Assembly: GCA_963422735.1 (NCBI GenBank)
Contig: OY730476.1
Location: 1,024,001-1,088,000 of the forward strand
Direction of reading: 5' to 3'
Origin: Candidatus Latescibacterota bacterium
GTDB taxonomy: Bacteria; Latescibacterota; UBA2968; UBA8231
Length of the DNA stretch: 64,000 nucleotides
Shown one piece after another: positions 10,127-57,400 of the stretch; within the stretch, counting starts at the first letter, position 1; each line of letters begins with the position of its first letter. Made by a program: the position numbers and the translations under genes. The notes beneath the pieces were generated by a model. The model searched no databases, had not been told where the DNA came from, and worked only from the letters and a program-made list of their open reading frames with translations.

Positions 10127-10148
10127 CCTCACGACGGAAACGGCACGG
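10127..10148 (-). repeat. Copy 3 of the 3' end of the 658-aa gene
   Basis: cctcacgacggaaacggcacgg matches 12328-12349 at 21/22 and includes the stop codon. Confidence 0.8.
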
Positions 10149-10169
10149 CTTGCGCAATAGTGGCGAAGC

Positions 10170-11000
10170 TTATTGGCCGTCGCAAGGCCGGTATTCGCCG
10201 CGGGCGTTCCAGCCGGGATACTGCGATTCCAAGGCATCGAGCGTCTGGCGGGTGTAGTAGGGATGGTCGGGCGGCGGGAAGCGGAAGAGCTGGCGATCGG
10301 CGGCAGTGAGGCCGGCGATAAACTCGCAAAAGTGCGGGTCGCGCCCCACCTGGGTGTAGTGCTCGACGCCTTCCCAATAGTGGTCGGCGCGGCCATAGGC
10401 GAATTTCCAGATATAGCGCTGGCCGTCGGCGCGCCGATAGTCGCTGGCGGCGTGCCAGGAGTAGTTGTGGAAGATGGCTACCGAGCCGCCAGGGGCGACC
10501 ATCGGCTCGGCTTTAGCCGGGTCCTGGTGCTGGCCGTCGCCATCGGCGACGAAGAGGGTTGGGGCCTGATCCCCTTCGACGTCTTCGAGGCAGAACCAGA
10601 AGTTGAGCTGGCTGTGACGACGGTCGGATGTAGTGGGCGGCAGCAGCGAATTGTTGCAATTGTCGATGTGGAACGGCCCACCCTTGCGGCCCGGATAGGA
10701 GACCAAACCCAGTCCGGGCCGGTAGTGGATTTGGTCGGTGCCGAGCCAGTGTCGGGCGAAGGCGATGGCTTCGCGGTCGACGATGGCGCGGTTGAGGCAT
10801 TGTTCGGGATAGGGGAAATAGCAGGAGTCCAGGCGAGCGTCGGGCGGGCCGTCCGCGACTTCGTCCCAAGGTTTGAGGAGGAGGCGGAGGGCGGCGGCCA
10901 TGGCGGCGCGTTGGGCTTCGGGGAGGTAGTTGTGGATGATGACAAAGCCGCGTGTGGCAAGTGTTTTGAATACTTCGTCGTTTAGTTTTTGCTCCTGCAT
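10170..11000 (-). CDS. Phytanoyl-CoA dioxygenase (PhyH) family protein
   Basis: RGFVIIHNYL, HxD motif (FHID), GGSVAIFH..SWHAAS, distal Arg. Confidence 0.8.
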   Translation of the reverse strand: MQEQKLNDEVFKTLATRGFVIIHNYLPEAQRAAMAAALRLLLKPWDEVADGPPDARLDSCYFPYPEQCLNRAIVDREAIAFARHWLGTDQIHYRPGLGLVSYPGRKGGPFHIDNCNNSLLPPTTSDRRHSQLNFWFCLEDVEGDQAPTLFVADGDGQHQDPAKAEPMVAPGGSVAIFHNYSWHAASDYRRADGQRYIWKFAYGRADHYWEGVEHYTQVGRDPHFCEFIAGLTAADRQLFRFPPPDHPYYTRQTLDALESQYPGWNARGEYRPCDGQ

Positions 11001-11011
11001 GATGGGTTCCT

Positions 11012-11326
11012 TTAGGCGACATGTTTCTGGATGCCGACGACGAGTGCGATGCTCAGGGCCGCGATCAGCGCGACACCGACGAGCGTGATGATTAAGGTCT
11101 TGCCCATAAACAAATAGATCCCCAAGCCCATCAGGACGGTCACCACTCCCATAAGGAAGAGCATCAGCCCCACCCAGTGGGCCAATGCGTCCTTGTCGGC
11201 GACCCGGTTCGGGTCGAGACCGGAGATCAGGCCGATGCGTTTCTTAACTCCTATCAGATAGGCGATGGCATAGAGCGGCAGGGCGGAGAGCAGCATGACG
11301 AGAAAGATAAATAGGTCTGAGTCCAT
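11012..11326 (-). CDS. Small 3-TM membrane protein (DUF3784-like)
   Basis: YLIGVKKRIGLISG.D...V.DK..LA, three hydrophobic segments, RBS AAAGGAG. Confidence 0.7.
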   Translation of the reverse strand: MDSDLFIFLVMLLSALPLYAIAYLIGVKKRIGLISGLDPNRVADKDALAHWVGLMLFLMGVVTVLMGLGIYLFMGKTLIITLVGVALIAALSIALVVGIQKHVA

Positions 11327-11355
11327 AGAAAGCTCCTTTCATGGGCTGGGAGTTG

Positions 11356-11430
11356 TCACGCCGGAAACGGCACGGGAAGGCATAGCTTGGCGTATTGTAG
11401 AAGCGGTCTAGCCCGGCTCCGACGCGAATC
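11356..11430 (-). repeat. Copy 2 of the 3' end of the 658-aa gene (diverged, 22-bp internal deletion)
   Basis: Encodes IRVGAGLDRFYNTPSYAFP versus IRVGVGLDRFCNTPSYAFP at 12330-12426. The deletion lies between cacgggaa direct repeats. Confidence 0.92.
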
Positions 11431-12270
11431 AATCTAGAGCACGGCAAGACCATTGTCCTTGAAGCCACTCCTCCAGTTCAGCAATCTCCTCTTCCGTCAA
11501 GTTCAAGCTGGCTGCTTGAGCGCGATCAGTTGTAGATCTGATCAGGGCTGCTCGAATATCGTCCGCGTTTGGTCCCGGGTTTACACTCCGTGCAGCACCG
11601 CCGAATAGCGCTGCACGGAGAATCACTCCAATCGCTTGTCGTCCTACTTGTATGCCCTCCCTCTTAAGCTCATCCCGGGTCCAAGCCGTAGCTTGGGTCA
11701 AGCTGAAATCATGAGTGTTCCCATAGTGTGCGAGCATTTCAATGGTTGCCTTCCACTTAGCAGGGCTAAGCAGGGGTAAGTCGGTGATTTGAAAAATTTG
11801 CGTGATAAGCTCCGGCGTGTCTTCTTCGCCTCCCGGTTCCGAGTGAATGTCGGGATTCCACACATAGTGATTCTTTGTGCGGAGATCGGGCATCATCGAA
11901 ACTAATCTGCCAAGCGAGCCGGTGTTAAACCATCGGCTTCGATCTATGGTATCCCCGAATTCGATCTGAATTCGGATACCGAAAAGCCTGATTTGGTGAG
12001 ATTTGGCCGGAATCTCGAAAAGTAAACCCTACCACTATCGTTCCCCTCCTCGGTGTCCTCAACCCATCCCACCGGGTTCATATACGCCCGTCGTACTAAG
12101 AAATCTCTCCTAGCGTTAGGTGAAAGCTTCCAGGAGGCAAGAGCATCGAGCCACTTGCTAGGTTCCCGCGCTAATGTGTAAGCCGCTCAACGGTCCAGTT
12201 CCAGCATGCCACTGAAAAGATTGTCGAAGTCTAAGAAGAGTGCTGTTCTGATACATTCCATGCTGGTCAT
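11429..12270 (-). pseudogene. NYN (LabA/DUF88 PIN-like) domain protein, disrupted
   Basis: RTALFLDFDNLF...R*AAY (in-frame TGA at 12187-12189)...RRAYMNPVGW...YFSRFRP. The nuclease core is deleted; the C-terminal part survives as 11429-11896. Confidence 0.7.
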
Positions 12271-12329
12271 CTCCAGTTATCTATCTATTTGCTACCCCTC
12301 TGGCCGCCAAGAGGATACAACGATTAACC

Positions 12330-14306
12330 TCACGACGGGAACGGCACGGGAATCCCATCGCCGTGCCACGGGAAGGCGTAGCTCGGTGTATTGCAGAAAC
12401 GATCTAGCCCGACTCCGACGCGAATCGCCGTTGACGGCGGCAGTTCCACCGAGAAGTACTTCCCTTCTACAGCAGCTACAACCTCGCCATCCCTCCCTGC
12501 GGCGCGGTATTTGAGCTGCGTGAAGCGGTGCTCACCAAAGGCACCGGCCTGTACAATGAGGCGGCGCGTCTCGTGCCGCGACGTGTTGACGAGCTGAATG
12601 CCGACCCCAGCCGGTCCCAGTTCATCTACCAAGGCGGCCACATCTAAGGGCAGCCCCGGACGCAGGAGATCGGCGTCGAAGTAGCGCACCGTAGCGCGCA
12701 GCAGACCGCCGTTATAGACCGACTGCGGCGCCCCCAGCGTCACTTGGGTCAGCCCCTTGGTCAACACCGGCTGCGACGGGAGCCGATTGGTAGCGATGAT
12801 CTCCAGAGGACTGCGCTCCACGTCGCGCATGGCCTCGTAGGTCTCTAGGGCCTGCTGGTACTCCGCCTGCAGAATCTGCTCCGGCCAGCTCGGGTTCTTG
12901 CCGTCGTAGTACTGGAAGCGGGCAAATTCGGTATTGCCCCAGTTTTTCTCGCCCAAGACCGTGCCTACATCATTCCAGTCTCGCTCCACGTCGCCTTCGC
13001 GCACCGAGGTGATGAGCTCGTAGTCCTCCCGGGCCATAGAGGCGTGGTACAGGTGCATGATGTCCTGACCCCTAAGTGGGGTGGGTTCCAGCCAGTAGCC
13101 CCGCATCTCAATGCCGTCGCTTACGTGTAGTCCCGGCGCTGGATTCCAGTCCCAGCCATCCGGCCCGTAGCGCACTGGCACGAGGAACTGCCCATCCTCC
13201 CGTTTCCTGCCGTTATCGATTTGCAGCTTGATTTGCGAGCGCAAAAAGTCGAGGTAGCCGCTGTCGCCGGTGAGCAGTTGGGCGCATTCGACTGCGATGT
13301 TGATACCGTGGAACATGATGTTGTAGCCTTGGTAGTGGTTCCAGCCGTATTGGCCTCCCCACCACGCGCCTTCGCGTCCCCCACCGATGACGCCTTTGGC
13401 ATCGACATTGTCCGGGCAAATACCGCCGTTTTTCTCGGTGCGCTCCATCCACGCCTCCGTGTAGTCGAGGACCCACTGTTTGTACTTGCTATCGCCCGTG
13501 TACAGATAGGTATTGGTCACCAGCGCGGTAGCCGCTAAGCTGTTGGGCGTGTCGCACTGCAAGACGAGCCGGTCGAACAGATCGACGATCTGCTTGCGCC
13601 GCGCTGGATTTTCAAACCAGCGGGTCTCTAAGTTTTTGACGATGGGATACAGGCTGGCGCGCACTCCGTAGTAGTTGGCCTGTCCGCCCAAGCCGCGCCC
13701 GGCCAGCAGCATGGTGTTGGCGTATTCTGCGTCTGCGTGGAGCTTGGGTCCTTGGCTCGAATGGAAGGGCGAGCGCAGGATGCGGTATTCGGGATCCCAG
13801 TTGGGGGCTTGGGGATCCTCACCGATAAACAGGGCCGCAAAGCTCCGCGCCCGCCGCATGTTTTCCGATACCGTGGGATCGGCCACCCCAAAGTCGTAAA
13901 AGGCCATATTGCCCTCGCCCAAGTGATGCCACTCCATGGCTTGTTCGAGGTTCCAGAATTCGTTGTGGATGGAAGGGCGGAAAACTTTCACGTGATCGTT
14001 GTAGCGCGTGCGATGATTAATGCGATCATCGCTGATGCGGGTGACCGCGTTCCAATTGCGGAAGTGGAAATCGAGCAAATCGTCGGCCGCGCCAATCGCG
14101 TAGAACAGGCCGAAGTTGTACATCTGTTCGTAGAGATCATCCACATCCTCGGCCAACAAGGTGCCGCCGCCGCGCTCAAAGTACTGCCGAGCGAACAGGC
14201 GGCCCGACTCCTCCATCAGTGCGATCAAATTCCGCTCCATTAAGGCCCACGCCGGCGGGGCCGCAACCTCGGTCGCCTCAATCCTAGTCATACTATTTGC
14301 TACCAT
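12330..14306 (-). CDS. Large hypothetical protein, 658 aa, Trp/Tyr-rich, probably an enzyme
   Basis: Long ORF with RBS GGAGG and coding-like composition. No family recognised. Confidence 0.8.
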   Translation of the reverse strand: MVANSMTRIEATEVAAPPAWALMERNLIALMEESGRLFARQYFERGGGTLLAEDVDDLYEQMYNFGLFYAIGAADDLLDFHFRNWNAVTRISDDRINHRTRYNDHVKVFRPSIHNEFWNLEQAMEWHHLGEGNMAFYDFGVADPTVSENMRRARSFAALFIGEDPQAPNWDPEYRILRSPFHSSQGPKLHADAEYANTMLLAGRGLGGQANYYGVRASLYPIVKNLETRWFENPARRKQIVDLFDRLVLQCDTPNSLAATALVTNTYLYTGDSKYKQWVLDYTEAWMERTEKNGGICPDNVDAKGVIGGGREGAWWGGQYGWNHYQGYNIMFHGINIAVECAQLLTGDSGYLDFLRSQIKLQIDNGRKREDGQFLVPVRYGPDGWDWNPAPGLHVSDGIEMRGYWLEPTPLRGQDIMHLYHASMAREDYELITSVREGDVERDWNDVGTVLGEKNWGNTEFARFQYYDGKNPSWPEQILQAEYQQALETYEAMRDVERSPLEIIATNRLPSQPVLTKGLTQVTLGAPQSVYNGGLLRATVRYFDADLLRPGLPLDVAALVDELGPAGVGIQLVNTSRHETRRLIVQAGAFGEHRFTQLKYRAAGRDGEVVAAVEGKYFSVELPPSTAIRVGVGLDRFCNTPSYAFPWHGDGIPVPFPS

Positions 14307-15233: not shown

Positions 15234-15315
15234 TAGTAGCCAGTGTTGAGTGAATAGTGCCCCGCCGCCTCTAGGGTCGGGAGCGGACGGGAACTAACCA
15301 CTGAAAATCGGCACT

Positions 15316-15700
15316 ATGAAAAAGCGAATCCTCGGCCGCACGGGCCTAGCCGTGAGCGAGCTGTCGCTCGGCGGGCTTTTTGTCTCGTCCCTTGGTGCGG
15401 CCTTTGAGCAGAGCAAGCAGGCCGTGCGCCGCGCCCTCGAATTGGGGTTAATTACATCGACGCCGCGCCGACCTATTTCGATAGCGAAGAGGTCTTGGGT
15501 AAGGCATTCGAAGGCGTGGAAACGCCCCTTTACCTTTCGACTAAGATCGGAGGTCGCCTAACCCCCTTCCTGCCACAGGGCCCCGCCTGCCTGCGGCGTT
15601 CGGTGGAGGAAAGCCTCAAGCGCGACCGCGTCGATATCCCGATGGTCCACGAGCCAGACCGGCCGCGGATGTACGATTGGGGTTCCCTTCCGACCTTGCG
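15316..15700 (+). pseudogene. Aldo/keto reductase, frameshifted and 3'-truncated
   Basis: RILGRTGLAVSELSLGG...ALELG, frameshift near 15450, then YLSTKIG...SVEESL..D.VDI.MVHEPD. Confidence 0.8.
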
Positions 15701-15766
15701 AAGACCCCTTCGTCCTACCGCTAGCCGGGCTTACTCTGGGCTGGGACAGATCCGTTAGCAGTCTTC

Positions 15767-41080: not shown

Positions 41081-41815
41081 TCACTCAATTTCATACACCA
41101 CAGTGACATGCACGGTGACAGTGAGGGCACCTGGGACAATGGGAGTGGAAGTACGCGCACCTTCAGCGAAGGCGGCTTCTGTGGTCAGGATTGGCGGACC
41201 TGCGAAATAGCTACTTTCAGTGATAGTAACAGGTTCCCCTAGCCTTACACCACTTGCTGCCGCTAAAGTTTGTGCTTTCGCTTCAGCATTCTTTACCGCC
41301 AAACTACGTGCTTGGGTTTGTAATGGTGTGGTATCATCAATCATAAATTGAATAGAGTTAATAACGATGCTATTCCCTCCCGCTTCGGCGGCACCATCTA
41401 TGACATCACTGAGGGTCCCCAATTCTCGGATCTTCGCCCGAACGGTGTTGTTTACTCTGTAACCACGAAGTATGCGTCCGTTTCCTATATAGTCGTACTG
41501 GGGATAGATACTGAAATTCTCAGTTTTAATGTCTTTTTCAGCAACGTTGTTCGCTTTCAGAGAATTTATTAACGCTGTCATCGCACTCGCAGCTTCTTCA
41601 CGTGCCTCTGCGACTGTCTCTTTCTCAACAGACACACCTACATCGAGCGTTGCAATATCTGGTTCACCAGTAACTGAACCGCTCCCGGTTACATGGATAG
41701 TTCTGTCAATTGCTGAGGACGATAATACCTCCGAGGCAACATTCAAATCACAGGCAGTGAGTGTTAAAGTCAGCAATGTGCCGATCGCTAGAAAACAATA
41801 ATTACATCTTTTCAT
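41081..41815 (-). CDS. SIMPL-domain (DUF541) lipoprotein
   Basis: Lipobox LTA-C, TIHVTGSGSV...PDIA, DIKT.NFSIYPQY, A..KAQTLA.A.GV.LG. RBS GGAGG; visibly AT-richer than flanks. Confidence 0.9.
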   Translation of the reverse strand: MKRCNYCFLAIGTLLTLTLTACDLNVASEVLSSSAIDRTIHVTGSGSVTGEPDIATLDVGVSVEKETVAEAREEAASAMTALINSLKANNVAEKDIKTENFSIYPQYDYIGNGRILRGYRVNNTVRAKIRELGTLSDVIDGAAEAGGNSIVINSIQFMIDDTTPLQTQARSLAVKNAEAKAQTLAAASGVRLGEPVTITESSYFAGPPILTTEAAFAEGARTSTPIVPGALTVTVHVTVVYEIE

Positions 41816-41899: not shown

Positions 41900-42014
41900 C
41901 CCCAGCAGGGCCAACGCCTGAACCAAGAGCGCCGCAACGCACAGCCAAGCCGCTCCAAAGACACCTACGCCGCTTGACATGCTCCCTAAAAGACCCTTTA
42001 TAATTCTTATACAA
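41900..42014. repeat. Copy A of an approx. 115-bp diverged repeat carrying TTGACA-19-TATAAT
   Basis: Aligns with 43987-44099 (ccccag.aggg, cgccgcaacgca, ccaaagacacctac.ccgcttgac, ccctttataatt). Confidence 0.88.
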
Positions 42015-42113: not shown

Positions 42114-43013
42114 ATGGTACGCAAAGATAGAAAAATCAGCAGCAGCGACGACGGCTGGATCATGAGCAACATGACCGGTCCCGTAACGCCGCAGACCATC
42201 AAAAAGCGCATGATCGACACCTATTCCGGTGCGCCCATTGGCGCGGTGTCGTGGTGCGTCGGCAATAGCGAGACCTACGAATACGAAACGGAAGTGGGCG
42301 AGCACACGGGGGACGGCTACACCCATTTTGCCGACGAGTGCCTCGCCTCGCAGCAGCGGAACCTCCACAGTCTGATCGCCCCGTGTGGTGGCCCCTCGAC
42401 CGAGGTCGTACGCCAGTTCCACGAGGCCAAGATTGACGTACTGCCTTCGGTGTGCATGAACAGCCACTACGACATCGCCTACGACTCCCGTCCCATGGCC
42501 AGATCCGCCGCGACCACCCCGGCTGGCTCATCGGCCGCCCCACCCTCGAACACGACATCGCCAAGGGCCCCGACTACAAATATCCCGGTGCCCGCATACA
42601 TGAAAAAAATCATCTTCGAACTCTGCGAAAAATTCGACGTGGACGGGGTCGAACTCGACTATTTTCGCCACCCGGCATTCTTCCGGATCGAAGAAGCTTA
42701 TACCAATCGCTATCTCATGACCGACTTTATCCGGCGCATTCGCCAGCGCCTAGACGAGGTCGGCGCACAGCGCGGCAATGACGACGACGAACTAGACGTA
42801 CACATCAATGGTGAGCCCGTACCCTGGGACAAACGCCGAGTTTCCCAAGACGGCTGGGGCTATACCGTCTTCGACGGCACAGTCTACCACACGACCATAG
42901 CGACGGAGCGCGTCGAGGGTACTCTGATACAGTTTGATGTGACCGATCTGCCTATCAAGAAGGGGAAGGGCTCATTAAGGGCACCGGACCGCATTTTGAA
43001 CCGGTTACCCTGA
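42114..43013 (+). pseudogene. GHL10-like protein, internally deleted and frameshifted (same family as 7196-8782)
   Basis: DDGWIMS, PSVCMNSHY, ELCEKFDVDGVELDYFRHP, MTDFIRRIR..LDEV, then an abrupt jump to a C-terminal domain. Confidence 0.7.
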
Positions 43014-43104: not shown

Positions 43105-43926
43105 ATGTCACTTCACGAACCCTTTACAGAAGAAGAACTATCGCCGATTCTCGAAGATTTTTACAAAAACGGTGCGGCCATCATCCGCAACGTCTTATCC
43201 CGGGAAGAATGCGAGCACATGTGCAGACGCATCGACCAGATTTTCGCCGAACCCTATTTCGCCGAAATGCGACATGTAAAAATAAAGCCACAGCTCAATG
43301 ATGGAGCACCCATCGTTGTACATCGGCTATTTGAATGCGACCGAATGTTCCGCGATCTACTCGTGCGCGAGCCTATTATATCTATTGCCGAAACAGTCCT
43401 CGGCCCACAGTGCCATTGCATGGCGCAGGGATGCATCTTGAACCGCAAGGATCGGGGCATTAACCGCTTTCACGTAGATGACAGCTTGGAATTTCCAATT
43501 GCGGACGACAATATCAGTAGCCATGACAGGCGTCTTCAGATGCCCGTTTTTCGCATGTCGTTCCAGATCGCCCTGACAGACCAAGACGAAGAACAGTATG
43601 GCCCCAGCCAATTCGTGCCGGGTAGCCACTATGCGGGCAGACACCCCAACGATCCAGAAAATCCAATCTTCGACGGTCAAGGCCCCACGTCCCTGCTCAT
43701 GAAAGCAGGGGACCTCTACCTCCTCAGCAGCCAAACCTGGCATCGCGGTGTCCCAAATACATCGGATCGCGTCCGCTACCTCTTTCACCAAGTCTATAGT
43801 CAGCGTTTCGTCGCCCAGCGATTCTGGCCCTATCTCAACTATCACATGCCCGATTACGTCCTCGAAGGTGCTAACGAACGCCTTCTGCGCGTTCTCGGGA
43901 AACACCCCGAAATGGCCTATGGATAA
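43105..43926 (+). CDS. PhyH-family dioxygenase
   Basis: FYKNG..IIRNVLS, FHVD, VPGSH, KAGDLYL....WHRG..N.SD..R. Confidence 0.9.
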   Translation: MSLHEPFTEEELSPILEDFYKNGAAIIRNVLSREECEHMCRRIDQIFAEPYFAEMRHVKIKPQLNDGAPIVVHRLFECDRMFRDLLVREPIISIAETVLGPQCHCMAQGCILNRKDRGINRFHVDDSLEFPIADDNISSHDRRLQMPVFRMSFQIALTDQDEEQYGPSQFVPGSHYAGRHPNDPENPIFDGQGPTSLLMKAGDLYLLSSQTWHRGVPNTSDRVRYLFHQVYSQRFVAQRFWPYLNYHMPDYVLEGANERLLRVLGKHPEMAYG

Positions 43927-43986: not shown

Positions 43987-44099
43987 CCCCAGTAGGGCCG
44001 ACGCCGACCCAAGAACGCCGCAACGCAAGCGAGGCCGACCCAAAGACACCTACACCGCTTGACCTGACCTCCTAAAGGCCCTTTATAATTCCTATACAA
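43987..44099. repeat. Copy B of the approx. 115-bp repeat (TTGACC-19-TATAAT)
   Basis: Matches copy A and lies directly upstream of the RBS of 44115. Confidence 0.88.
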
Positions 44100-44114: not shown

Positions 44115-45116
44115 ATGATTAAACTGGGTATGATCGGATGTGGCGGCATGGGGGGTGCCCACATGCGGCGGTTTCACACACTGAGCGATCGGGTCGCATT
44201 GGCCGCTGCTGTCGATGTTGTTCCAGAACGCGCAGAAGCAGTCGCGCAACAATTTCCGGGAGCCTGTGTGGCGACAGATTATCGCGAGATTCTAGACTCG
44301 GTAGGTGCCGTATTGCTCGCGCTACCCCACCACTTGCACTTTTCCGTCGGATATGCGTGTCTCAATGCTGGCGTTCATGTCTTGCTCGAAAAACCCATGG
44401 CCAATTGTGAAATCGCCTGCAAAGAACTTATTGAAGCATCTGCAACCTCGGGCAAAGTGCTGATGATTGCATATTGCATGCGCTTTCATCCAATTGTCCA
44501 GCGTCTGAAAGCATTATTAGATGAAGGCGCGTACGGCGATGTATTTCAAGTGTCGATCTGGACCGAGCAACTCACTCGGTATCCCCCCGATCACTGGGCT
44601 TCGAGCAAAGAGCGATTGGGCGGGGGGCAGTTGTTTAGCCATGGCTGTCATTATATCGATTTGTTGCTCTGGTTTTTGGGGCGACCCGTGCGGGGCATGC
44701 ACATGGGCACAAATTTTGGTACGCCGTGGATGGAGCGAGAAGGAACGAGCAATGTGACGATAGAATTTGCAGATGGCCGCCTAGGATATCACTTTGGCAC
44801 CTGGGGTGCGCGGGGCACCCGATTGCGGTACTCAATCCACGCGCATTGCACAGAAGGTTTGCTCGATGCCGATATTTCAGGTGGCAAGCTCGTGCATATC
44901 CTACGCGGTCAAGAGCAAGTTTTGTTCGAAGCAGAGCCGGGCAAACACACGGAAAACGAGATGGCCCATTTTCTCGATTGCATTGAAACCGGGCAAACAC
45001 CGCTGACAGATGGCAGAAGCAGCTTGCAGGGATTGCGCGTAATCTGGCGGCTATATGAAGCCGAGCAAGCAGGGCATATTGCAGATTTGACGGGATTGGG
45101 TTTGGATGGGGCCTAA
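44115..45116 (+). CDS. Gfo/Idh/MocA oxidoreductase
   Basis: GMIGCGGMG, HVLLEKPMA, GGGQL..HGCHYIDL. Confidence 0.93.
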   Translation: MIKLGMIGCGGMGGAHMRRFHTLSDRVALAAAVDVVPERAEAVAQQFPGACVATDYREILDSVGAVLLALPHHLHFSVGYACLNAGVHVLLEKPMANCEIACKELIEASATSGKVLMIAYCMRFHPIVQRLKALLDEGAYGDVFQVSIWTEQLTRYPPDHWASSKERLGGGQLFSHGCHYIDLLLWFLGRPVRGMHMGTNFGTPWMEREGTSNVTIEFADGRLGYHFGTWGARGTRLRYSIHAHCTEGLLDADISGGKLVHILRGQEQVLFEAEPGKHTENEMAHFLDCIETGQTPLTDGRSSLQGLRVIWRLYEAEQAGHIADLTGLGLDGA

Positions 45117-46225: not shown

Positions 46226-46429
46226 TTTGGCACCGTATGAATAAAATTTGTGGTTTCCACTTGGCTTAGCCTAACACCCTTAGTGCCTTGTTGTCAATGT
46301 AAAGATGACTTGATGGTCTTAACGGTCCGCGCCTTTGGCAGGTTCCTCTTGACGAGTATGCGGGGGCGTTTCACGACCGAGCCGGACGCAGCTCGAAACC
46401 AACCTTTCACGGAGGTCGATCTGCCGGTG

Positions 46430-47115: not shown

Positions 47116-47241
47116 CCATGCGCAGTTCGAAAGTCTTCGCGAGTGCCGAGTTCGAGATCCTCTACCGCGCCGCCCGCCACTTGCCTTGCTGGGGAATATC
47201 GGAATGAGAAATTTCTATTTCCACTCCCCACTGAGGACTCC

Positions 47242-47775: not shown

Positions 47776-48117
47776 GATGATTAGGGGTTGAGCGAATGGC
47801 CCAACAAGCTAGGGGAAGTCTCCGCACACGTCAATCGGGTAGCTGGCCGAACAGATTCGCACCCCCGTCCAACCGTTCACCGGTACCGGTCCAATGCAAT
47901 TATTGAGGACCGTGCATGGGCAAAATTTGCGATATTGTGGTGGCACAAGAGTCTTCGGCATCTTAGTATTGTTTGCACGGTGAAACGGAGATGGACATCG
48001 AGGGACAAACGCTAAAAATCGCAACAGGTGATACGGGCTGCGTGGTGTCTCTGCTAAGTCCAGCAAATTTGCAAATTAGTCAGACAGATCAGTTTGATTA
48101 GAGGTGTTCGGAGGTAG

Positions 48118-49080
48118 ATGCCGATGAGCGCAAAATACGAGTGGTGCCGCCTCACTGAGAACGCTGCATTCGCAGCTCGCGATGGCGCTGGCGCACTGGT
48201 GTTCAGGGATAGAATGTGGCTACTGGGCGGCTGGAATCCCGGGGATAAAGTCCATTTCCCGCTGATCTGCAACAGTGAGGTCTGGTCGTCGGCCGATGGC
48301 ACCTCCTGGACGCTTGAGAATCGCCATGCGCCCTGGGAGGGGAGGCATACGGCCGGATATGTGGTACATGACGGCCAGATGTGGATCGTGGGCGGTGATT
48401 GCAATCAAGGCCATTATCAGAACGATGTCTGGAGCAGTGCGGACGGTATTCATTGGGATCTGGCGCATGATCGCGTACCGTGGGCACCCCGAGCGCTCCA
48501 TTATACCCTAACCTTCGACGGCCGGATCTGGGTGATGGGCGGGCAGACGCTGCCCGATTTTGGCGGCGGTGATGAGGTCTTCTACAACGATGTGTGGAGT
48601 TCGGAAGATGGGACTAGCTGGACCCGAGTTATCGAGCGCACGCCGTGGGCGCCCAGAGGGATGATCGGGGGATCTGTTGTACATGACAACAAGATGTGGA
48701 TTCTGGGTGGGGGCACATACGATACGCCGGCAACTCCTATCCGCAAATTCTACAATGATGTGTGGAGTTCGGAAGATGGGGTAAACTGGAAACAGCACCT
48801 AACGCACGCTCCGTGGGCACCCAGGCAATACCACGAGGTGGCCGCATTCGATGACCGTATGTGGGTGTTAGAAGGCTATGCGGTGGCGAGTGGAAATCGC
48901 CGCGACGTGTGGTATTCGGCTGATGGCGTGGACTGGACCGAATTGCCCGATACCCCCTGGGCACCCCGACATGCAGCGAGCGCGTTCGTGTACGACGGGT
49001 CGCTGTGGATGGTGGCGGGGAATAATATGGAGCCAGACGTCTGGAGGCTTTCGCGCATGAGGCCATCTCAGCAAAAATAA
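48118..49080 (+). CDS. Kelch-like beta-propeller protein
   Basis: About six repeats of PW.PR.....V...MW..GG......NDVWSS.DG..W. Confidence 0.88.
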   Translation: MPMSAKYEWCRLTENAAFAARDGAGALVFRDRMWLLGGWNPGDKVHFPLICNSEVWSSADGTSWTLENRHAPWEGRHTAGYVVHDGQMWIVGGDCNQGHYQNDVWSSADGIHWDLAHDRVPWAPRALHYTLTFDGRIWVMGGQTLPDFGGGDEVFYNDVWSSEDGTSWTRVIERTPWAPRGMIGGSVVHDNKMWILGGGTYDTPATPIRKFYNDVWSSEDGVNWKQHLTHAPWAPRQYHEVAAFDDRMWVLEGYAVASGNRRDVWYSADGVDWTELPDTPWAPRHAASAFVYDGSLWMVAGNNMEPDVWRLSRMRPSQQK

Positions 49081-49089
49081 TTCGAAGGG

Positions 49090-49583
49090 ATGAGCAGTAC
49101 TTATCTAATGAAGTTTTGCCGGCACGGATTGATCAGTTGAGGGAAAAGTTCGGGGGCGGTTGGGAAGATCTCCGTGAAAGGGTGATCGCCTCGTGGGCAG
49201 ACATGGCTGTGGAACTTATCGGGAGGGGTACGGGATTGACCCTAGTCCACGGCGATGCACAACTGGGAAATGTGCTGCCGCGCAACCCACAATTAGATCG
49301 GCCTGTGATCATAGACTGGGAAGGATGTATACGAGGCATTGGAGTATGGGATTTAGCCCGAACTATGATACAGACCGAGTTACCCTCGAATAAGAGGCTA
49401 GAAATTGAGGAAGTGCTCCTGTCCCGTTATCAGGCTTTGTTGGTAGAACGCGGAATAAAGGATTACAGTCGTGAAGCTTGTTCTGCCGATTACCGCTTGA
49501 GTGTGTTGGCCAATATTCCGCATGCTTTAGTATGGGAGAGCGATTCCTATCTTGAGTCCGCGATGCGAGCCTACCGAGACTAG
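49090..49583 (+). pseudogene. 5'-truncated aminoglycoside/choline-kinase-like phosphotransferase
   Basis: TLVHGDAQLGNV, IIDWE, G..DLA. The N-lobe is absent. Confidence 0.7.
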
Positions 49584-49769
49584 GAATGTGATGAACTACT
49601 GCGTTGAGAATTAAACTATATGGAGATGAGGAGACCAACTGCAGCGTCTCTGATTCCCTGACACTTTTACTTCTGATGGATGTACTGGTTTTAACAACCG
49701 TTCTTATACCTGTGGGTGACAACCGTCTTTTGTAAGCCGGCAACCGATGGAGTTGATGTGCGATACAAC

Positions 49770-50000
49770 GTTTGAGCCATCGAAGGTCCAATTGAAACAG
49801 ACTCAGTTCGCGCACTTGCAGATCCAAGTCCCTTTGCAACAGCCCATAGCCATACTGGGGCACCCACACAAAGTATTCGATCTTATATTTCGTATGACGG
49901 CCTTCACCATAAGCCATCTTGGAAGCATAACCCAGCCATTCGCGGAAAGCGATCCCCTCTCAAAGACGGGGGTTTTAGCCCAAACTTTAGACGAATAAAA
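49770..50000 (-). mobile_element. IS200/IS605-family remnant: end hairpin plus deleted tnpA
   Basis: MAY..GRHTKYKIEY.FVWVP.Y.Y..L..DL...VREL resembles a Y1 transposase N-terminus; the HuH motif is lost. Hairpin CCCCTCT-CAA-AGACGGGG near 49954-49972. Confidence 0.75.
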
Positions 50001-50054
50001 CCGTCGGAGGATTTTTCTGGGCTGTCGTAGTTCTATCCATTTCCCAAGGCATTT

Positions 50055-50135
50055 TCAAATCTCCTTCAGTCTTCTGAGAATCAGCCGTCTATCCTTATCG
50101 GGAATGGTTTTGCTCTCTTTTTGGAGCGCATGCAG
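50055..50135 (-). pseudogene. C-terminal remnant of a Gp49/HigB-like (RelE fold) toxin
   Basis: LHALQKESKTIPDKDRRLILRRLKEI*. Confidence 0.5.
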
Positions 50136-50275
50136 CCGCGGCAAGTCTTTTGCGTCGGTGGCCTCCTTCCGTGCGAAAGGACAAGGTATATATTGGCAAA
50201 ATATGAAGAGTTTGCTAAATTCTTACTATAAAGTTGGAACTTATAAAAAGTAGGAATCAACGAAGGGAGCGCACG

Positions 50276-50518
50276 ATGGCCGTCGCCAAACTAACCTCCA
50301 AAGGACAACTGGTCATTCCCCAAGCCATACGCCAGCATATGCACCTGCAGCAGGGCGATAGCGTGGATTTTATCATCCAAGACGATGGCGAAGTGGTCGT
50401 CAGACCGGCCACCCGAGATGTGCGGGAACTAAAGAATATCCTGCCGAAACCCAAGGAGGCCGTATCGCTAGAGGAAATGGATCGTGCGGTGCGCGAGGGC
50501 GCGGGAAAAGCACTGTGA
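50276..50518 (+). CDS. AbrB/MazE/SpoVT-family antitoxin
   Basis: AKLTSKGQLVIPQAIR......GD.VDF. Confidence 0.92.
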   Translation: MAVAKLTSKGQLVIPQAIRQHMHLQQGDSVDFIIQDDGEVVVRPATRDVRELKNILPKPKEAVSLEEMDRAVREGAGKAL

Positions 50519-50910
50519 GGGGGCTAGATACCAATGTGCTGGTGCGCTATCTGGTGCAGGACGATGCGACACAGGCGCGGCGCGTGGCAAAAGAGATCGA
50601 AGCGGGATCGAATGCGGGCGAGATCTATTTTATTGCCGATGTCGTCTTCTGCGAACTGGTGTGGGTGCTCGATCGGGCCTATAGATACAGCCGGGCGCAG
50701 ATTGGCGACGCGCTGGAGGGCATTTTACAAACGCGCTCATTTCATTTTGTGGACAAAGACCTGCTCTGGCAAGGGCTGGGCGATTACAAAAAAGGTAGGG
50801 GCGACTTTGCCGATTATGTGATTGGGCGCGTGGGCGAAAAGTCCGGGTGCGAAAAAACGCTCAGTTTTGATCGCGCTTTAAAAGGCGACGTACGATTTGA
50901 AATGCTTTAG
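50515..50910 (+). CDS. VapC PIN-domain toxin
   Basis: GLDTNVLVRYL, ELVWVL, DFADY.I, SFD. GTGA overlap with the antitoxin. Confidence 0.93.
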   Translation: MRGLDTNVLVRYLVQDDATQARRVAKEIEAGSNAGEIYFIADVVFCELVWVLDRAYRYSRAQIGDALEGILQTRSFHFVDKDLLWQGLGDYKKGRGDFADYVIGRVGEKSGCEKTLSFDRALKGDVRFEML

Positions 50911-51125
50911 GAAAATGAGCAGGATCGCTCTGCCATTGGATTTTGGGCCCATCCGCCGCTGGATGAGCGTACTGAGGAACCCCACTGCGAATTGGCCAAG
51001 GCGAATTTTACTATGGTAATCGCCGGGTTTAGCAATTGCCCACTACCGACCCAACCCTCACCGGCCATCTTGACATCGGCGACGTGCGCTAGCTACTTTC
51101 CCTCCTGCACGCAGAGGTATTGTCC

Positions 51126-53550: not shown

Positions 53551-54459
53551 ATGACCAAAAAACCGCGGGGCGTGTCCCCTATTTTCTTAGACGAAAATTC
53601 GCAACATTCAGCGACCGCGGGTCATACGCGCCGCCGCATTGTTTTTGGCTGGTACGGTGGGAAATTCTCTCATCTCGACTGGCTGTTACCCCTGCTGCCG
53701 GAGTGTCATCATTACTGCGAGCCTTTTGCCGGTTCTGGGGCCGTGCTCATCAACCGAGCACCCGCTCCTGTCGAGACCTATAACGATCTTGACGGTGAGG
53801 TGGTACACTTCTTTCGGGTGTTGCGCGACCAGCACCAAGCACTGATCCGCGCTATCGCCCTGACGCCGTTCTCGCGCGAGGAATACTACTACGCCATCTA
53901 CGGCAGCACCGAGGACATCAGCGACTTAGAACGCGCCCGACGTTTCTATATTAAAGCGCGGCAGACTCGCACCGGGCTAGCACAAACGGCCTCCCTTGGT
54001 CGCTGGGCCAACTGCAAGAATACGAGCCGGGCTGGTATGTCTGGCGTGGTCTCTCGCTGGTTGGGGGGTGTAGATGCACTCGACGAGATTGCACAGCGTC
54101 TGATCCGAGTTCAGATTGAAAACCGACCCGCTGTGGATGTGATTCAACTCTACGACAGCCGCAAAACCTTGTTCTACTGTGACCCTCCCTACTTACACGC
54201 CACTCGTGGCGACGCCAAAGCATACAAGTTTGAAATGGACGAAGCCGAGCACCGCATGTTGGCAAAAGTCGTCAATGAGTGCGAGGGCAACGTGGCCGTG
54301 TCTGGCTACCATCACCCCTTGATGGACAAGTTGTTCCCGCCCGATCGCTGGTTCAAGACACAAGGACCGGACAAGACCATCCATTCCACCAAGGACAGCC
54401 GGCGCGAAGTGTTGTGGACAAACTACGAGCCGGAAGTACAAAAAGAGCTGTTTGAATGA
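53551..54459 (+). CDS. DNA adenine methyltransferase (Dam/D12 class)
   Basis: FGWYGGK, EPFAGSGAV, YND.DG, DPPY, EVLWTNY. Confidence 0.93.
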   Translation: MTKKPRGVSPIFLDENSQHSATAGHTRRRIVFGWYGGKFSHLDWLLPLLPECHHYCEPFAGSGAVLINRAPAPVETYNDLDGEVVHFFRVLRDQHQALIRAIALTPFSREEYYYAIYGSTEDISDLERARRFYIKARQTRTGLAQTASLGRWANCKNTSRAGMSGVVSRWLGGVDALDEIAQRLIRVQIENRPAVDVIQLYDSRKTLFYCDPPYLHATRGDAKAYKFEMDEAEHRMLAKVVNECEGNVAVSGYHHPLMDKLFPPDRWFKTQGPDKTIHSTKDSRREVLWTNYEPEVQKELFE

Positions 54460-55559
54460 CACCAGAGGACATTCTGCGTGGCATTTACGAGCGTGCTGAG
54501 GCGGTCCCCGACCTAGACATCAGGGAACGCGTTGCTTATGTCTGCCGATGCACGAGCAACCGCGCCGGGGTGTGCTTGCTTATGTCGTGCCTGCTGGGCA
54601 AGCTAGACAAGCCCAATGTCGATCCGCGCAAACCCTATACTGAAATTGGCGACCCGGACAGCTTTTCTGGACGCACCTACGATGAACAACATCTGGCCCC
54701 ATTCATCAATGAACACCGCTTGCCCGTCAATCAGACAACGGCCTTCCTCACGCCAGCACTGAGAAACATCGACCATCCACTGACCACGGACCGCGAGCTT
54801 GTTGGCAGACCGCGTGACCTGTATAAAAAGATCCTTGAACTACTCGAAGATGTGGCCGAACAGCGAGTAGCCGCTGATGTGCTATTTGTCGAAATCGTCC
54901 GCCTCTTGCTTCAGATGCGCGATGAGAAACTGGCCCGCATAGATTCACTACTCAAGGGATTGGAACAAACCGAAGGGGCCTTGCCCCTATCATCAGAGGC
55001 CATCGTTACCCTGCTCAAGCAGCACTTATCGTGCAAACATGCAAGCCGCTTGCCGGTCCTCGTCGTAGCGGCGGCCTATCAGGCAGCCGGAACGCGGCTT
55101 GCCGAACGCATATTGCCGCTAAACCCACACAATGCCGCCGATCTGCAAACCGGCTCATTAGGGGATGTGGAAATTTGCCTCGTTGGAGAAGATTCTGTTG
55201 TAGCGGCTTATGAAATGAAGGCGAAGAGAGTCGATTACACTGACATCGACGCGGCACTAGCCAAGATCCTCGGAGCACCGCATAGGATTGACAATTATCT
55301 ATTCGTCACCACGGCTGAAATCGATCCGAGGGTAGCCGAATACGCAGCCGGATTTTACGAACAGACCGATGGAGTCGAGATTGCGATTTTGGAATGCATT
55401 GGGTTTCTGCGGCACTTCTTGCATCTGTTCCACCGCATCCGCGCCGACTATTTGAACGCCTACCAAGAATTGGTTTTGAACGAGCCGGATTCAGCCGTAA
55501 GTCAAACACTCAAGGAGGCTTTCCTAGCCCTGCGCCAAGCGGCTGAAAGCGATGAGTAA
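54456..55559 (+). CDS. Putative type II restriction endonuclease (PD-(D/E)xK, SacI-like)
   Basis: Coupled to the MTase by an ATGA overlap. FSGRTYDE, HNAAD..TG..GDVEI...AYEMK motifs. Confidence 0.7.
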   Translation: MTPEDILRGIYERAEAVPDLDIRERVAYVCRCTSNRAGVCLLMSCLLGKLDKPNVDPRKPYTEIGDPDSFSGRTYDEQHLAPFINEHRLPVNQTTAFLTPALRNIDHPLTTDRELVGRPRDLYKKILELLEDVAEQRVAADVLFVEIVRLLLQMRDEKLARIDSLLKGLEQTEGALPLSSEAIVTLLKQHLSCKHASRLPVLVVAAAYQAAGTRLAERILPLNPHNAADLQTGSLGDVEICLVGEDSVVAAYEMKAKRVDYTDIDAALAKILGAPHRIDNYLFVTTAEIDPRVAEYAAGFYEQTDGVEIAILECIGFLRHFLHLFHRIRADYLNAYQELVLNEPDSAVSQTLKEAFLALRQAAESDE

Positions 55560-55567
55560 TAAATGAT

Positions 55568-55591
55568 TTAGTAAACCACCGCTGCGTACGC
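55568..55591 (-). repeat. Copy of the 3' end of the FlgD-domain gene at 56964
   Basis: ttagtaaaccaccgctgcgtacgc versus ttagtaaaccaccgctacgcacgc (56964-56987): 22/24, beginning exactly at the stop codon. Confidence 0.82.
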
Positions 55592-55613
55592 TATTGGATA
55601 AATAAAAAATAAA

Positions 55614-56468
55614 ATGGATAACAACGTCCAAGACTATTTATTCGACCTCCAAGGTTATTTGGTCTTAAAAAATGCAATCTCGGCCGCAGATTTGCGCGAG
55701 ATGAACCAGTGGATAGACGACCACGCATCGTATGTAGAAGATCCGTGGTCAACAGAGGGTGATTCGAATAGAAAAAGTCGCTGGATTGGTAATGTAGAAA
55801 CGCACACCTACCATGAAGAAAATGGCGTCAACTTCCAAAGTATCATCGAGGGTGGCCCTGTTTTTGAGCGATTGATAGATCATCCGGCTTGGATCGACTT
55901 GGTCAAGAAGTACATTCACTCCTCAGTAAATGGCCTTTCCATTCACGAGAACTTTCTCAACGTCCGCGGTCCGGGTGGTTACATCCACATTCACTGCGGT
56001 GGACATGTTCCGCTCAGTTATTTGACGTTTCGCCAGAATAACACCGGCGAGTGGATGGTCGGGCAGATTAACGTATTGATGGCCCTCAACGACATCGGCG
56101 AGGGCGAGGGCCCGCCGGTACTAATTCCGGGCAGCCACAAGTGTAGCGAAATTCACCCTCGGCTGGAGGTGGACGGCCAGGGCTTGGTTTACGATGGTGT
56201 GAGCGGCAAGCCCGCCGGGACAGCCATCGCTGTGCAGGAAATGTATCTGAAGGCAGGGGATGTTTTGTTATTCACCGATGCGATAACACACGGCTCTGCG
56301 GAACGCACCAATCCCGGTTGTCGGCGGACGGTTGTTTATCGCTATTCCCCAAGATATGTGCGCGAGCGATTTAACTATCAAATTTCAGAGGGACTGTTAC
56401 AACGTTTGACCCCAGAAAGACGGGCCATTATTGAGCCCATCGTACCGCGGCAGCCGCCATCCGCATAG
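55614..56468 (+). CDS. PhyH-family dioxygenase
   Basis: YLFDLQGYLVLKNAIS, IHCG, IPGSHK, KAGDVLLF...ITHGS..RTN...RR. Confidence 0.88.
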   Translation: MDNNVQDYLFDLQGYLVLKNAISAADLREMNQWIDDHASYVEDPWSTEGDSNRKSRWIGNVETHTYHEENGVNFQSIIEGGPVFERLIDHPAWIDLVKKYIHSSVNGLSIHENFLNVRGPGGYIHIHCGGHVPLSYLTFRQNNTGEWMVGQINVLMALNDIGEGEGPPVLIPGSHKCSEIHPRLEVDGQGLVYDGVSGKPAGTAIAVQEMYLKAGDVLLFTDAITHGSAERTNPGCRRTVVYRYSPRYVRERFNYQISEGLLQRLTPERRAIIEPIVPRQPPSA

Positions 56469-56492
56469 CGTTCAAGAATAGAGGCTACATCG

Positions 56493-56948
56493 GTGAGATA
56501 TGGAATCAGTGCCGCGGCATTGATCGTCCAGCACAAGCGCCTGCTGTTGGTCAATCACAAAAAGAGCGGGCAGTACGATTTTTGGTTGCCACCGGGGGGA
56601 AAATTACAGGGGGACGAATCGATCTTTGATTGTGCGCGACGGGAAGCGATGGAAGAAACGGGCTTATCCGTTGAGTTAGATCGCATCATCTATATCGTCG
56701 AATACGCCGAACCGGACTATCACTTCTGCAAATTTTTCATTCGCTGTAAAAGGTTCGCCGGAACCCTCACGCTTGCCAATAGAGAACCGGAAGAGACTTT
56801 TCTCGTCAATGCGCGTTTCTTTGCCAAAGCGGATCTGCAAGGCCTCAAGGTACATCCCGCAATTTTGCAAGCTCATTTTTGGGACGACCTTGAGGCCGGA
56901 TTCCCAGAAACGCGGTACTTGGGGCTGGAAGAAATAGGGACGCACTGA
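56493..56948 (+). CDS. NUDIX hydrolase
   Basis: PGGKLQGDESIFDCARREAMEETGL Nudix box. Confidence 0.92.
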   Translation: MRYGISAAALIVQHKRLLLVNHKKSGQYDFWLPPGGKLQGDESIFDCARREAMEETGLSVELDRIIYIVEYAEPDYHFCKFFIRCKRFAGTLTLANREPEETFLVNARFFAKADLQGLKVHPAILQAHFWDDLEAGFPETRYLGLEEIGTH

Positions 56949-56963
56949 GACCGAATCCGCCAA

Positions 56964-57400
56964 TTAGTAAACCACCGCTACGCACGCCATCCGCTCCTCG
57001 CGCGGCCGATCTGTTTCCACCGCCACCCGGACCAGATACAAACCCGGTCCGACCAACCGGCCCGATTGATCGCGGCCATTCCATAGCACCGCATGGCGAC
57101 CGACCTCCCGCTTGGACCGGCTCGCTATAAGCAACGGCCGCGCAAATCGAACACTGCCACTTCGGGCGCGTCCAACGAGCAGCGTATAGCCGATCCGCAC
57201 CTCGTCGTTCACCGCGTCTCCCTGCGGCGTAAAGGCAACCGGCTCTACCTCCATTGCGGCCAACATCGACCCTTGCGCTGCGGTCCCTTGCAAGGGGGGC
57301 ATCTCTGCCGCGACTTCAACAGATGTTCTTAGCAATCCTATTGGGGCCAAGCGGCACCACAAGCCCATACCCTTGCCTCCGGCCAATCGACGCTGCTCAT
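56964..57400 (-). pseudogene. C-terminal FlgD-like domain, remnant of a large secreted protein
   Basis: FTPQGDAVND...I.YTLL...WNGRDQSGRLVGPGLYLVRV...VAVVY*. The upstream part of the listed ORF is only the antisense shadow of the next gene. Confidence 0.65.

What the first reader, a model, noticed from the sequence alone, without database searches (positions are those of the whole stretch)
10127..56987. Recurrent integrase-free gene capture marked by diverged gene-end scars
Seen: three separate loci (10.1-12.4 kb, 41.0-44.1 kb, 55.6-57.0 kb) share one layout. Blocks of 0.8-2 kb of accessory genes sit between two non-identical copies of a neighbouring gene end or promoter. The copies are unrelated between loci, run from about 22 to 115 bp, and stack serially at one locus (possibly two). 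Each locus carries a PhyH dioxygenase, and no integrase or intact transposase is in the window. Known: site-specific integration leaves near-identical att cores, whereas homology-facilitated illegitimate recombination during natural transformation uses one homologous anchor plus a microhomology. Inference: the lineage may repeatedly import a donor allele plus its neighbours and displace the old gene end. That would be an integron-like route to expanding catabolic families without attC sites.
Basis: partly seen in the sequence, partly recalled or inferred. Interest (0 to 1): 0.75.

Follow-up and report, generated by a model that had tools for sequence, protein, structure and literature searches.

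The report
Gene-end displacement scars mark gene imports
In an uncultured bacterial genus, DNA from a relative can replace the last stretch of an ordinary gene, bring neighbouring genes along and push the old gene end downstream as a short scar; this process was already proposed for toxin genes and is seen here at ordinary genes, with no integrase found.

Summary
The repeats are real and above chance. The window belongs to a Ca. Latescibacterota genus; 19 close relatives of the locus-1 anchor, a DUF8034 gene, were compared.

Locus 1 is a displacement stack. Each scar keeps the old downstream flank. Seven of 19 relatives lack the inner insert, which is a decayed NYN gene. At least four separate events hit this gene end, with different scar lengths. 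Most scar-versus-gene differences are variants found in other species, so the two copies are different alleles. One relative's insert is chromosomal DNA from the same locus, cut inside a gene. No integrase was found.

The closest known cases are rhs C-terminal displacement and Vibrio T6SS module displacement.

Limits: loci 2 and 3 have no relatives to compare, and locus 2 is promoter-like DNA, not a gene end. Textbook HFIR deletes rather than duplicates, so a circular intermediate fits equally well. Cargo is mostly nuclease- or ATPase-like. The locus-1 PhyH is old (16 of 19 relatives). Scars were rare in 51 more distant loci. Verdict: new variant of a known kind.

The parts
12330..14306 (-). 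Locus 1 anchor: 658-aa DUF8034-like gene; its live 3' end is inferred to be the incoming allele
   Evidence: Atlas feature score 0.97 to DUF8034 clusters; no family in the Pfam copy scanned; 92-96% aa identical in 19 relatives
11431..12329 (-). Inner insert (899 nt): a whole NYN-domain gene (start 12261, C-terminus at 11456), later broken by one stop codon and a ~141-codon deletion; GC3 0.51
   Evidence: absent from all 19 relatives
11356..11430 (-). Inner scar: old anchor end from about 97 nt before the stop, with a 22-nt internal deletion; followed by the old DUF3784 flank
11012..11326 (-). DUF3784-like small membrane gene; directly follows the live anchor end in 7 of 19 relatives
10170..11000 (-). 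PhyH-family dioxygenase, an old resident of this site (full length in 16 of 19 relatives, 89-92% nt identity)
10127..10148 (-). Outer scar: last 20 nt of the anchor plus 2 nt; longer forms (41-105 nt) lie at the same place in relatives
9823..10095 (+). CBM48/AMPK-type carbohydrate-binding gene: the oldest downstream neighbour of the anchor (inferred)
41081..41815 (-). SIMPL (DUF541) gene left of locus 2, GC3 0.40
41900..42014 (+). Locus 2 repeat copy 1 (115 nt), non-coding, ends in promoter-like hexamers 19 nt apart
42114..43013 (+). Decayed GHL10-like glycoside hydrolase gene (matches residues ~23-231 of 512-526-aa homologues)
43105..43926 (+). PhyH-family dioxygenase, GC3 0.59
43987..44099 (+). 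Locus 2 repeat copy 2 (83% identical to copy 1), directly before the ribosome-binding site of the Gfo/Idh/MocA gene
44115..45116 (+). Gfo/Idh/MocA oxidoreductase
55568..55594 (-). Locus 3 scar: 27-nt copy (24/27) of the end of the FlgD-Ig remnant, 8 nt from the stop of the convergent gene 54456-55559
55614..56468 (+). PhyH-family dioxygenase starting 19 nt after the scar, GC3 0.58
56493..56948 (+). NUDIX hydrolase, GC3 0.58
56964..57284 (-). Locus 3 anchor: C-terminal ~110 codons of a FlgD-Ig-ended protein; no 5' part in the window

Best explanation
Homology-anchored additive import ('tip displacement'). DNA from a related species of the same genus carries the anchor gene plus whatever lies after it in the donor. 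It recombines homologously inside the anchor. Its other end is joined, with little or no homology, to a point upstream of the recipient's stop codon, either as a linear HFIR-type joint or through a circularised fragment that integrates by one crossover. The gene is restored with the donor's end, the donor's neighbours follow, and the recipient's old end is pushed downstream with its old flank. Repeats of the process build a stack, newest next to the gene. Later deletions shorten the scars and break unselected cargo. Copies that differ by about 10% are inferred to resist loop-out and so survive. Shown at locus 1: polarity, empty alleles, two-allele origin, several events, no integrase found. 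Inferred: the recombination route, the transfer vehicle, the survival filter, and that loci 2 and 3 formed the same way.
For: (1) Empty allele: in 7 of 19 relatives the live end is directly followed by DUF3784; the 60 nt after the window's inner scar match that flank at 47-49 positions against 2-37 in the other 12. (2) Same polarity elsewhere: the L003 scar carries the variant end and ATPase neighbour that are live in L004 and L008; the L014 scar carries the DUF3784 flank; the outer SDR-end scar of L013 carries the flank that is live in L014. (3) A profile of the last 300 nt hits downstream DNA in 16 of 19 relatives (10 at E<0.001); 0 hits upstream; 0 for five other anchor segments and 2 weak hits (E 0.55, 0.73) for the sixth. 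(4) Two alleles: scar vs own gene differs at 7 of 60 nt, against a between-species mean of 6.9. In the window, L003, L014 and L027 scars, 20 of 23 differences are bases seen in other live alleles (chance ~0.16) and 17 of 23 are third positions; in the decayed L001 and L031 scars only 6 of 19 are seen elsewhere. (5) L010: the ~3-kb insert is DUF3784-PhyH-two genes-stub of a fifth gene, in the order found in relatives beyond their own scar, cut mid-gene and joined with about 2 nt of microhomology. (6) Left edges lie about 105, 97, 59, 47 and 41 nt before the stop. (7) No integrase in 260 window frames, 89 of 100 cluster representatives from close loci, or 72 frames inside relatives' inserts; no phage or plasmid match for locus 1. 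(8) The anchor recombines between species: a 463-nt identical run in a 95.7% pair. (9) The model is published for rhs and T6SS loci.
Against: Loci 2 and 3 have no related loci, so polarity and empty alleles there are untested. Scar edges may be eroded, so their variation does not rule out one fixed site further upstream. No relative shows the anchor directly next to CBM48, so the empty allele of the outer event was not seen. Junction microhomologies are 1-4 nt at most and could be read only where a donor flank was available. HFIR as described usually deletes. No close donor was found: the window's anchor end is 88-93% identical to every relative compared. The model explains stacking and spread, not how a new gene first came to sit behind a donor's anchor. 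A neighbouring hot spot (HpcH-SDR gap) changes content with no scars detected in the relatives examined. Only 1 clean scar was found among 647 gene ends in 51 more distant loci.
Confidence: 0.6

Rival explanations
1. Decayed integrase-driven islands: a tyrosine or serine integrase targets a site 100 nt or more before the DUF8034 stop and brings a diverged replacement end, as lambdoid elements do at E. coli icd (recalled, not from a call). The integrase is later deleted or acts from elsewhere in the genome.
For: Scars concentrate on one gene end: 10 of the 12 scar-bearing gene ends in close loci are DUF8034. Cargo is defence-island-like: NYN, HEPN, toxin-antitoxin pairs, restriction genes. Deletions are frequent enough to erode edges. 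The island is bounded on the far side by tRNA-Ala.
Against: No integrase or relic in the window or in the scanned proteins and frames of 19 relatives. The L010 insert runs past a relative's own scar into chromosomal genes and ends mid-gene. Unrelated anchors show the same layout (SDR, DUF3784, an oxidoreductase in L067, FlgD remnant). No tRNA-end scars. No phage match to loci 1 and 3, and only a 56-nt internal E 2e-3 match for locus 2.
Confidence: 0.17
2. Intragenomic tandem duplication (merodiploid) with a short-homology joint, followed by ordinary two-sided allelic exchange and by deletions that stop at the nearest selected genes, leaving only a 3' remnant.
For: L013 has a near-identical tandem copy of SDR end plus small gene (34/34 nt). 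Deletions between short repeats are common here (the 22-nt deletion in the window, L018 and L027; loss of DUF3784, PhyH or the ATPase in several relatives). The anchor is mosaic.
Against: Neutral decay after duplication should give mostly private, any-position changes in the scar; only 3 of 23 are private in four scars. The NYN gene is foreign-like and single-copy, so duplication alone cannot place it between the copies. L010 needs two different end alleles.
Confidence: 0.15
3. The three loci are unrelated. Locus 1 is a displacement stack, locus 2 is two copies of a lineage-typical promoter module or small dispersed repeat, and locus 3 is the remnant of a deleted FlgD-Ig paralogue. PhyH is present in each because the family is abundant. 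This rival can hold together with the best explanation for locus 1.
For: The right 45 nt of the locus-2 repeat resemble DNA before an unrelated gene in L001 and L027 (E 0.07, 0.6) and L008 (motif match). PhyH-like genes are 52 of 712 genes and lie in 32 of 51 other loci; Poribacteria carry >1.9% phyH genes (PMC3909097).
Against: The full 115-nt unit was found only twice, 2 kb apart, in the window plus 71 loci. The locus-3 scar matches the adjacent remnant at 24/27 but six FlgD-like paralogues at 9-14/27. All 3 PhyH genes of the window lie inside scar-bounded blocks (post hoc).
Confidence: 0.25
4. Assembly chimera of two strain haplotypes.
For: Relatives are metagenome-assembled; reads could not be examined; the NYN insert is unique to the window.
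Against: The outer scar is present at the same place in independent assemblies, 13 of 19 being single-contig chromosomes. The copies are 83-95% identical, carry their own deletions, and the insert-scar joint has no long overlap.
Confidence: 0.03

Closest known systems
rhs C-terminal displacement (Jackson et al. 2009, PMC2935791; passages read)
   Same: An incoming piece with part of the anchor gene replaces the 3' end and shunts the old end downstream; retained fragments vary in length; arrays build up in series; no integrase; a circle plus single crossover is proposed.
   Different: There the new tip is a non-homologous toxin domain and is the payload. Here the tip is a homologous allele, the protein is almost unchanged, the scars are only 20-105 nt, and the payload is unrelated passenger genes behind a non-toxin gene.
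Sequential displacement of T6SS effector-immunity modules in Vibrio cholerae (Kirchberger et al. 2017, PMC5361080; passages read)
   Same: HFIR-like model with an upstream anchor, old material shifted back, alleles from different strains rather than duplicates, explicit integron analogy, no integrase evidence.
   Different: There the old effector is mostly lost and immunity genes are kept under clear selection. Here the old end is duplicated rather than lost, exchange is between species, and cargo is mixed.
HFIR and single-crossover insertion-duplication (Amarir-Bouhram et al. 2011, PMC3240628; passages read)
   Same: One homologous end plus one illegitimate joint; 56 of 60 E. coli clones carried a partial duplication of the anchor (109-950 bp in 14 sequenced) from a recircularised fragment; 3 of 4 true HFIR joints had no microhomology.
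   Different: Laboratory events with identical homology; classical HFIR gives insertion plus deletion. Here the natural products have diverged copies and shorter repeats.
Hot spots lacking mobile elements (Oliveira et al. 2017, PMC5635113; passages read)
   Same: Variable region between conserved genes, no integrase, raised recombination in flanking genes.
   Different: Their mechanism is double homologous recombination, which leaves no scar; the HpcH-SDR gap here fits that, the scarred sites add a duplicating route.
Integrons (defining features recalled)
   Same: Serial addition at one point, newest gene nearest, near-whole single genes as cargo, order differing between genomes.
   Different: No IntI, no attC-like hairpin, no shared site between loci.

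Membership tests
Integron | IntI tyrosine recombinase beside the array | tested here: not met
   No integrase family in 260 window frames or in 161 proteins and frames from relatives
Integron | attC sites: folded bottom-strand hairpins shared between cassettes | tested here: not met
   Folding z-scores -1.08 to +0.65 for 4 of 4 regions; Rfam finds only the tRNA; repeats unrelated between loci
Integrase-driven island in a protein-coding gene end | Integrase gene inside the att-bounded block | tested here: not met
   only IS-type transposases in L004, L014, L018
Integrase-driven island in a protein-coding gene end | One fixed crossover point | tested here: inconclusive
   Left edges about 105 to 41 nt before the stop, but erosion by deletion is possible
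Integrase-driven island in a protein-coding gene end | Integrase elsewhere in the genome acting in trans | not testable with these tools
   Only 64 kb of the genome and 22-kb loci of relatives were available
C-terminal (tip) displacement, rhs/T6SS type | Old 3' end kept downstream with its old neighbours | tested here: met
   (locus 1 only)
C-terminal (tip) displacement, rhs/T6SS type | Copies come from different lineages, not from duplication | tested here: met
   20 of 23 differences are variants seen in other live alleles
C-terminal (tip) displacement, rhs/T6SS type | New tip is a non-homologous toxin or effector domain with an immunity gene | tested here: not met
   New and old ends are alleles of one DUF8034 C-terminus
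HFIR | Insertion coupled with deletion of recipient DNA | tested here: not met
   The old end and its flank are kept and duplicated; the generalisation is
HFIR | 3-10 nt microhomology at the far joint | tested here: inconclusive
   About 2 nt in L010; donor flank unknown for the window inserts
HFIR | Natural competence and RecA dependence | not testable with these tools
   No genome-wide search possible; the window has a YraN domain, but YraN is widely conserved
Transposon or IS insertion | Transposase, terminal inverted repeats, short identical target duplication | tested here: not met
   No transposase in the window; duplications are 22-115 nt and non-identical; terminal inverted repeats were not searched for separately

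The most novel reading that the evidence does not exclude
In this genus, gene-end displacement between species is a genome-wide route of gene gain. Once a block is flanked by a live end and a scar, the scar serves as a short second homology, so the block can hop into any relative's allele and push its stack back. That is an integron-like cycle run by host recombination alone, and it would be a main source of the large PhyH and hydrolase families. L003 fits this: its block sits in front of a different old end than the related block in L014. Three scarred sites in 64 kb would mean hundreds per genome if the density holds.
Probability: 0.2. Interest if true: 0.75.

Novelty: new variant of a known kind. 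Interest (0 to 1): 0.5.

Why it matters
Many bacterial hot spots of gene gain have no integrase, and how genes are added there is an open question (27% lack integrases and transposases in PMC5635113). Short diverged gene-end scars give a readable record of order, polarity and donor for such events. They show that a process proposed for toxin loci also acts at ordinary genes and across species. The signature is cheap to count in any set of complete genomes, so the question becomes directly testable. If scars flank PhyH genes genome-wide, it would explain how such lineages amass diverse dioxygenase families.

Tried and rejected
Exact-sequence cluster look-up gave no answer, so accession-level identity of the window's proteins is unknown. 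Phage searches with all three loci and a plasmid search with locus 1 gave nothing relevant; loci 2 and 3 were not searched in plasmids. The homologue search with the Gfo/Idh/MocA protein gave no context. A donor tract at the anchor's 3' end was sought and not found. My first reading of the L010 sequence before the ATPase as that gene's native flank was dropped: it is a scar. One search's scar-versus-gene mismatch counts had an off-by-one error and were redone; only its flank counts and alignments are used. Hairpin (attC- or REP-like) structure was rejected. tRNA-Ala as the att site was rejected for lack of tRNA-end scars. In one search, hits in repetitive or mis-called genes of L021, L052, L059 and L060 and one 22-nt hit inside a gene of L007 were set aside as not scars. 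The de Vries and Wackernagel 2002 paper is not held. Searches for a prior description at ordinary genes and for this lineage found none; the library lacks most subscription papers, so this is weak evidence of novelty. No supplementary files were read.

Full report
OBSERVATION. At locus 1 the end of the 658-aa gene 14306->12330 recurs at 11356-11430 and at 10127-10148. At locus 2 a 115-nt non-coding stretch occurs at 41900-42014 and 43987-44099 (83%). At locus 3 the last 27 nt of a FlgD-Ig-type remnant recur at 55568-55594 (24/27). Six direct repeats of at least 36.5 bits lie 0.2-5 kb apart in the window, four from the finding and two inside coding repeats; 1 of 100 shuffles had any. Of 69 called genes, 2 have their end repeated downstream, scoring 18 and 17 against a best control of 12 in 138. 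Genes were called with my own codon-usage script. No integrase, recombinase or transposase family appeared in 74 ORFs and 186 further frames. The three PhyH proteins are 22-28% identical, so they are not recent duplicates.

ORIGIN. The scan with the locus-1 anchor returned 71 loci. Nineteen are close relatives with downstream DNA (92-96% aa), titled Ca. Latescibacterota or Gemmatimonadetes MAGs; 13 are single-contig chromosomes. None is the window's own genome (about 88-94% nt in shared genes). More distant hits include Poribacteria and Dehalococcoidia. These taxa are typical of marine sponges (recalled); no call shows the habitat. The anchor resembles DUF8034 proteins.

LOCUS 1 IS A DISPLACEMENT STACK. 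In 7 of 19 relatives the live gene end is followed directly by the DUF3784 gene. In the window the same flank follows the inner scar (47-49 of 60 nt match, against 2-37 for the other 12). So the scar is the old end, and 11431-12329 came in with a new end. The insert is one whole NYN-domain gene, from its start to the C-terminus of a 412-aa homologue, since broken by a stop and a deletion, with foreign-like GC3 of 0.51. A profile of the anchor's last 300 nt finds downstream copies in 16 of 19 relatives, 10 at E<0.001, none upstream, and almost none for other parts of the gene. At least four events can be told apart: the PhyH block before CBM48 (shared; one or two events, unresolved), the window's NYN, a block with HEPN and a small gene (scars in L003 and L014), and a 3-kb block in L010. 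In each case the scar keeps a flank that is live, or appears as the oldest flank, in other genomes. Left edges lie about 105, 97, 59, 47 and 41 nt before the stop. The same 22-nt deletion between two short repeats appears in scars at two different positions (window inner; L018 and L027), so it is decay after displacement (inference).

TWO ALLELES. The window's scar differs from its own gene at 7 of 60 nt; live ends of different species differ at 6.9 on average. In the window, L003, L014 and L027 scars, 20 of 23 differences are bases present in other live alleles (chance about 0.16) and 17 are third positions. In the decayed scars of L001 and L031 only 6 of 19 are. L018 (6 of 7) was left out of the sum as not independent of L027. 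The difference therefore arose while both ends were coding, which points to import, not to duplication and drift. The anchor gene does recombine between species, though no close donor for the window's end was found.

AGAINST AN INTEGRASE. L010's insert holds DUF3784, PhyH, two further genes and the stub of a fifth, in the order that relatives have beyond their own outer scar. It ends inside a gene and joins the old end with about 2 nt of microhomology. An att-bounded element would stop at the scar (inference). No integrase was found in 89 of 100 cluster representatives from 25 loci (11 short ones not scanned) or in 72 frames within six relatives' inserts; three IS-type transposases were. Unrelated genes show the same layout: SDR in L013, DUF3784 in L014, an oxidoreductase in L067. 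The scars fold no better than shuffles. This rival is weakened, not excluded: edges can erode, and an integrase could lie elsewhere.

WHICH RECOMBINATION ROUTE. PMC3240628 (passages) states that HFIR generally gives insertion plus deletion. In its E. coli assay 56 of 60 clones instead had a partial duplication from a recircularised fragment and one crossover. PMC2935791 (passages) proposes such a circle for rhs. PMC5361080 (passages) proposes an HFIR-like route for T6SS modules and draws the integron parallel. The products seen here fit either route. Competence is untested; the window's YraN domain says little because the family is widespread (passages of PMC13663708). That diverged, short repeats survive because they resist loop-out is my inference.

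LIMITS. Loci 2 and 3 could not be compared with relatives. The locus-2 repeat is non-coding; its hexamers are 19 nt apart and its right half resembles DNA before an unrelated gene in three relatives, although the whole unit was found only here. The locus-3 scar is much closer to the adjacent remnant than to six paralogues. The process is not everywhere. In 20 near-orthologous loci 12 of 386 gene ends had a hit (10 DUF8034, 1 SDR, 1 likely chance), against 0 of 307 and 0 of 386 controls. In 51 distant loci 6 of 647 had a hit, only 1 a clean scar, against 5 of 647 mid-gene and 0 of 585 upstream controls. The HpcH-SDR gap varies with no scars detected.

PHYH. At locus 1 PhyH is full length in 16 of 19 relatives, as diverged as core genes, with host-like GC3: captured long ago and kept. 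Younger cargo is mostly nuclease- or ATPase-like and often decays. PhyH-like genes make up 52 of 712 genes in the other 51 loci, which were chosen around DUF8034 genes and so are biased, and exceed 1.9% of genes in Poribacteria (PMC3909097, passages). All three window PhyH genes lie between repeat copies, which is suggestive but post hoc.

OTHER PAPERS SEEN. PMC5635113, PMC2884548 and PMC8125069: passages only. All other papers: search listings only.

VERDICT. A real feature. At locus 1 it works like rhs or T6SS tip displacement but is not a member of those systems, since the tip is a homologous allele and the payload is passengers. It is not an integron. I found no description at ordinary genes in seven searches of a partial library. 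New variant of a known kind; interest 0.5; novel genome-wide reading 0.2 likely, 0.75 if true.

Noticed in passing
window 15234-15766: Aldo-keto reductase remnant in the convergent HpcH-SDR gap. Relatives hold an intact copy, other genes, or nothing there, with no gene-end scars detected.
   Followed up: partly
window 27988-29334 (-): One ORF holds RNase HII and a YraN (UPF0102) domain; YraN acts in natural transformation but is widespread.
   Followed up: partly
window 4922-5308 (+): Short 128-aa single-stranded DNA-binding protein; short SSBs can be transformation-linked (recalled).
   Followed up: no
window 6634-6709: tRNA-Ala(TGC) bounds the variable region on the far side from the anchor; no tRNA-end scars in the window or 71 loci.
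   Followed up: yes
L013 3900-4760 (-): SDR gene end repeated three times around two near-identical copies of a small coiled-coil gene; the outermost copy keeps the flank that is live in L014.
   Followed up: partly
L067 5140-5684 (-): 40-nt gene-end scar 460 nt after an oxidoreductase gene in a more distant Latescibacterota, with one 106-aa gene between.
   Followed up: partly
L014 14480-15920; L003, L004, L008, L013: The DUF3784 3' end is also repeated or left as a remnant after the AAA14-DUF4143 gene, which sits before PhyH in some relatives and after it in others.
   Followed up: partly
L001 19655-19767; L027 16845-16871: Internal fragments of the CBM48 gene lie 2.6-6.3 kb from the intact copy.
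   Followed up: no
L003 vs L026, anchor gene: 463-nt identical run in genes that are 95.7% identical overall: recent exchange between species.
   Followed up: no
window 53551-55559 (+): D12-class adenine methyltransferase followed by a 367-aa gene with no family match, a likely restriction-modification pair (inference), next to the locus-3 scar.
   Followed up: no
window 46226-51125 and 59913-61314: Further accessory stretches: RibD-like gene, kelch-repeat gene, phosphotransferase fragment, MazE-like/PIN toxin-antitoxin pair, a second NYN fragment and a Zn-ribbon gene; no scars detected.
   Followed up: no
window 8783-9700: Remnants of two genes that are longer in relatives (L005, L002), showing heavy deletion in the island.
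   Followed up: no
window 33687-33797: Short tandem repeats (45-nt period with 21/24-nt sub-units) in the N-terminal coding part of grpE.
   Followed up: no
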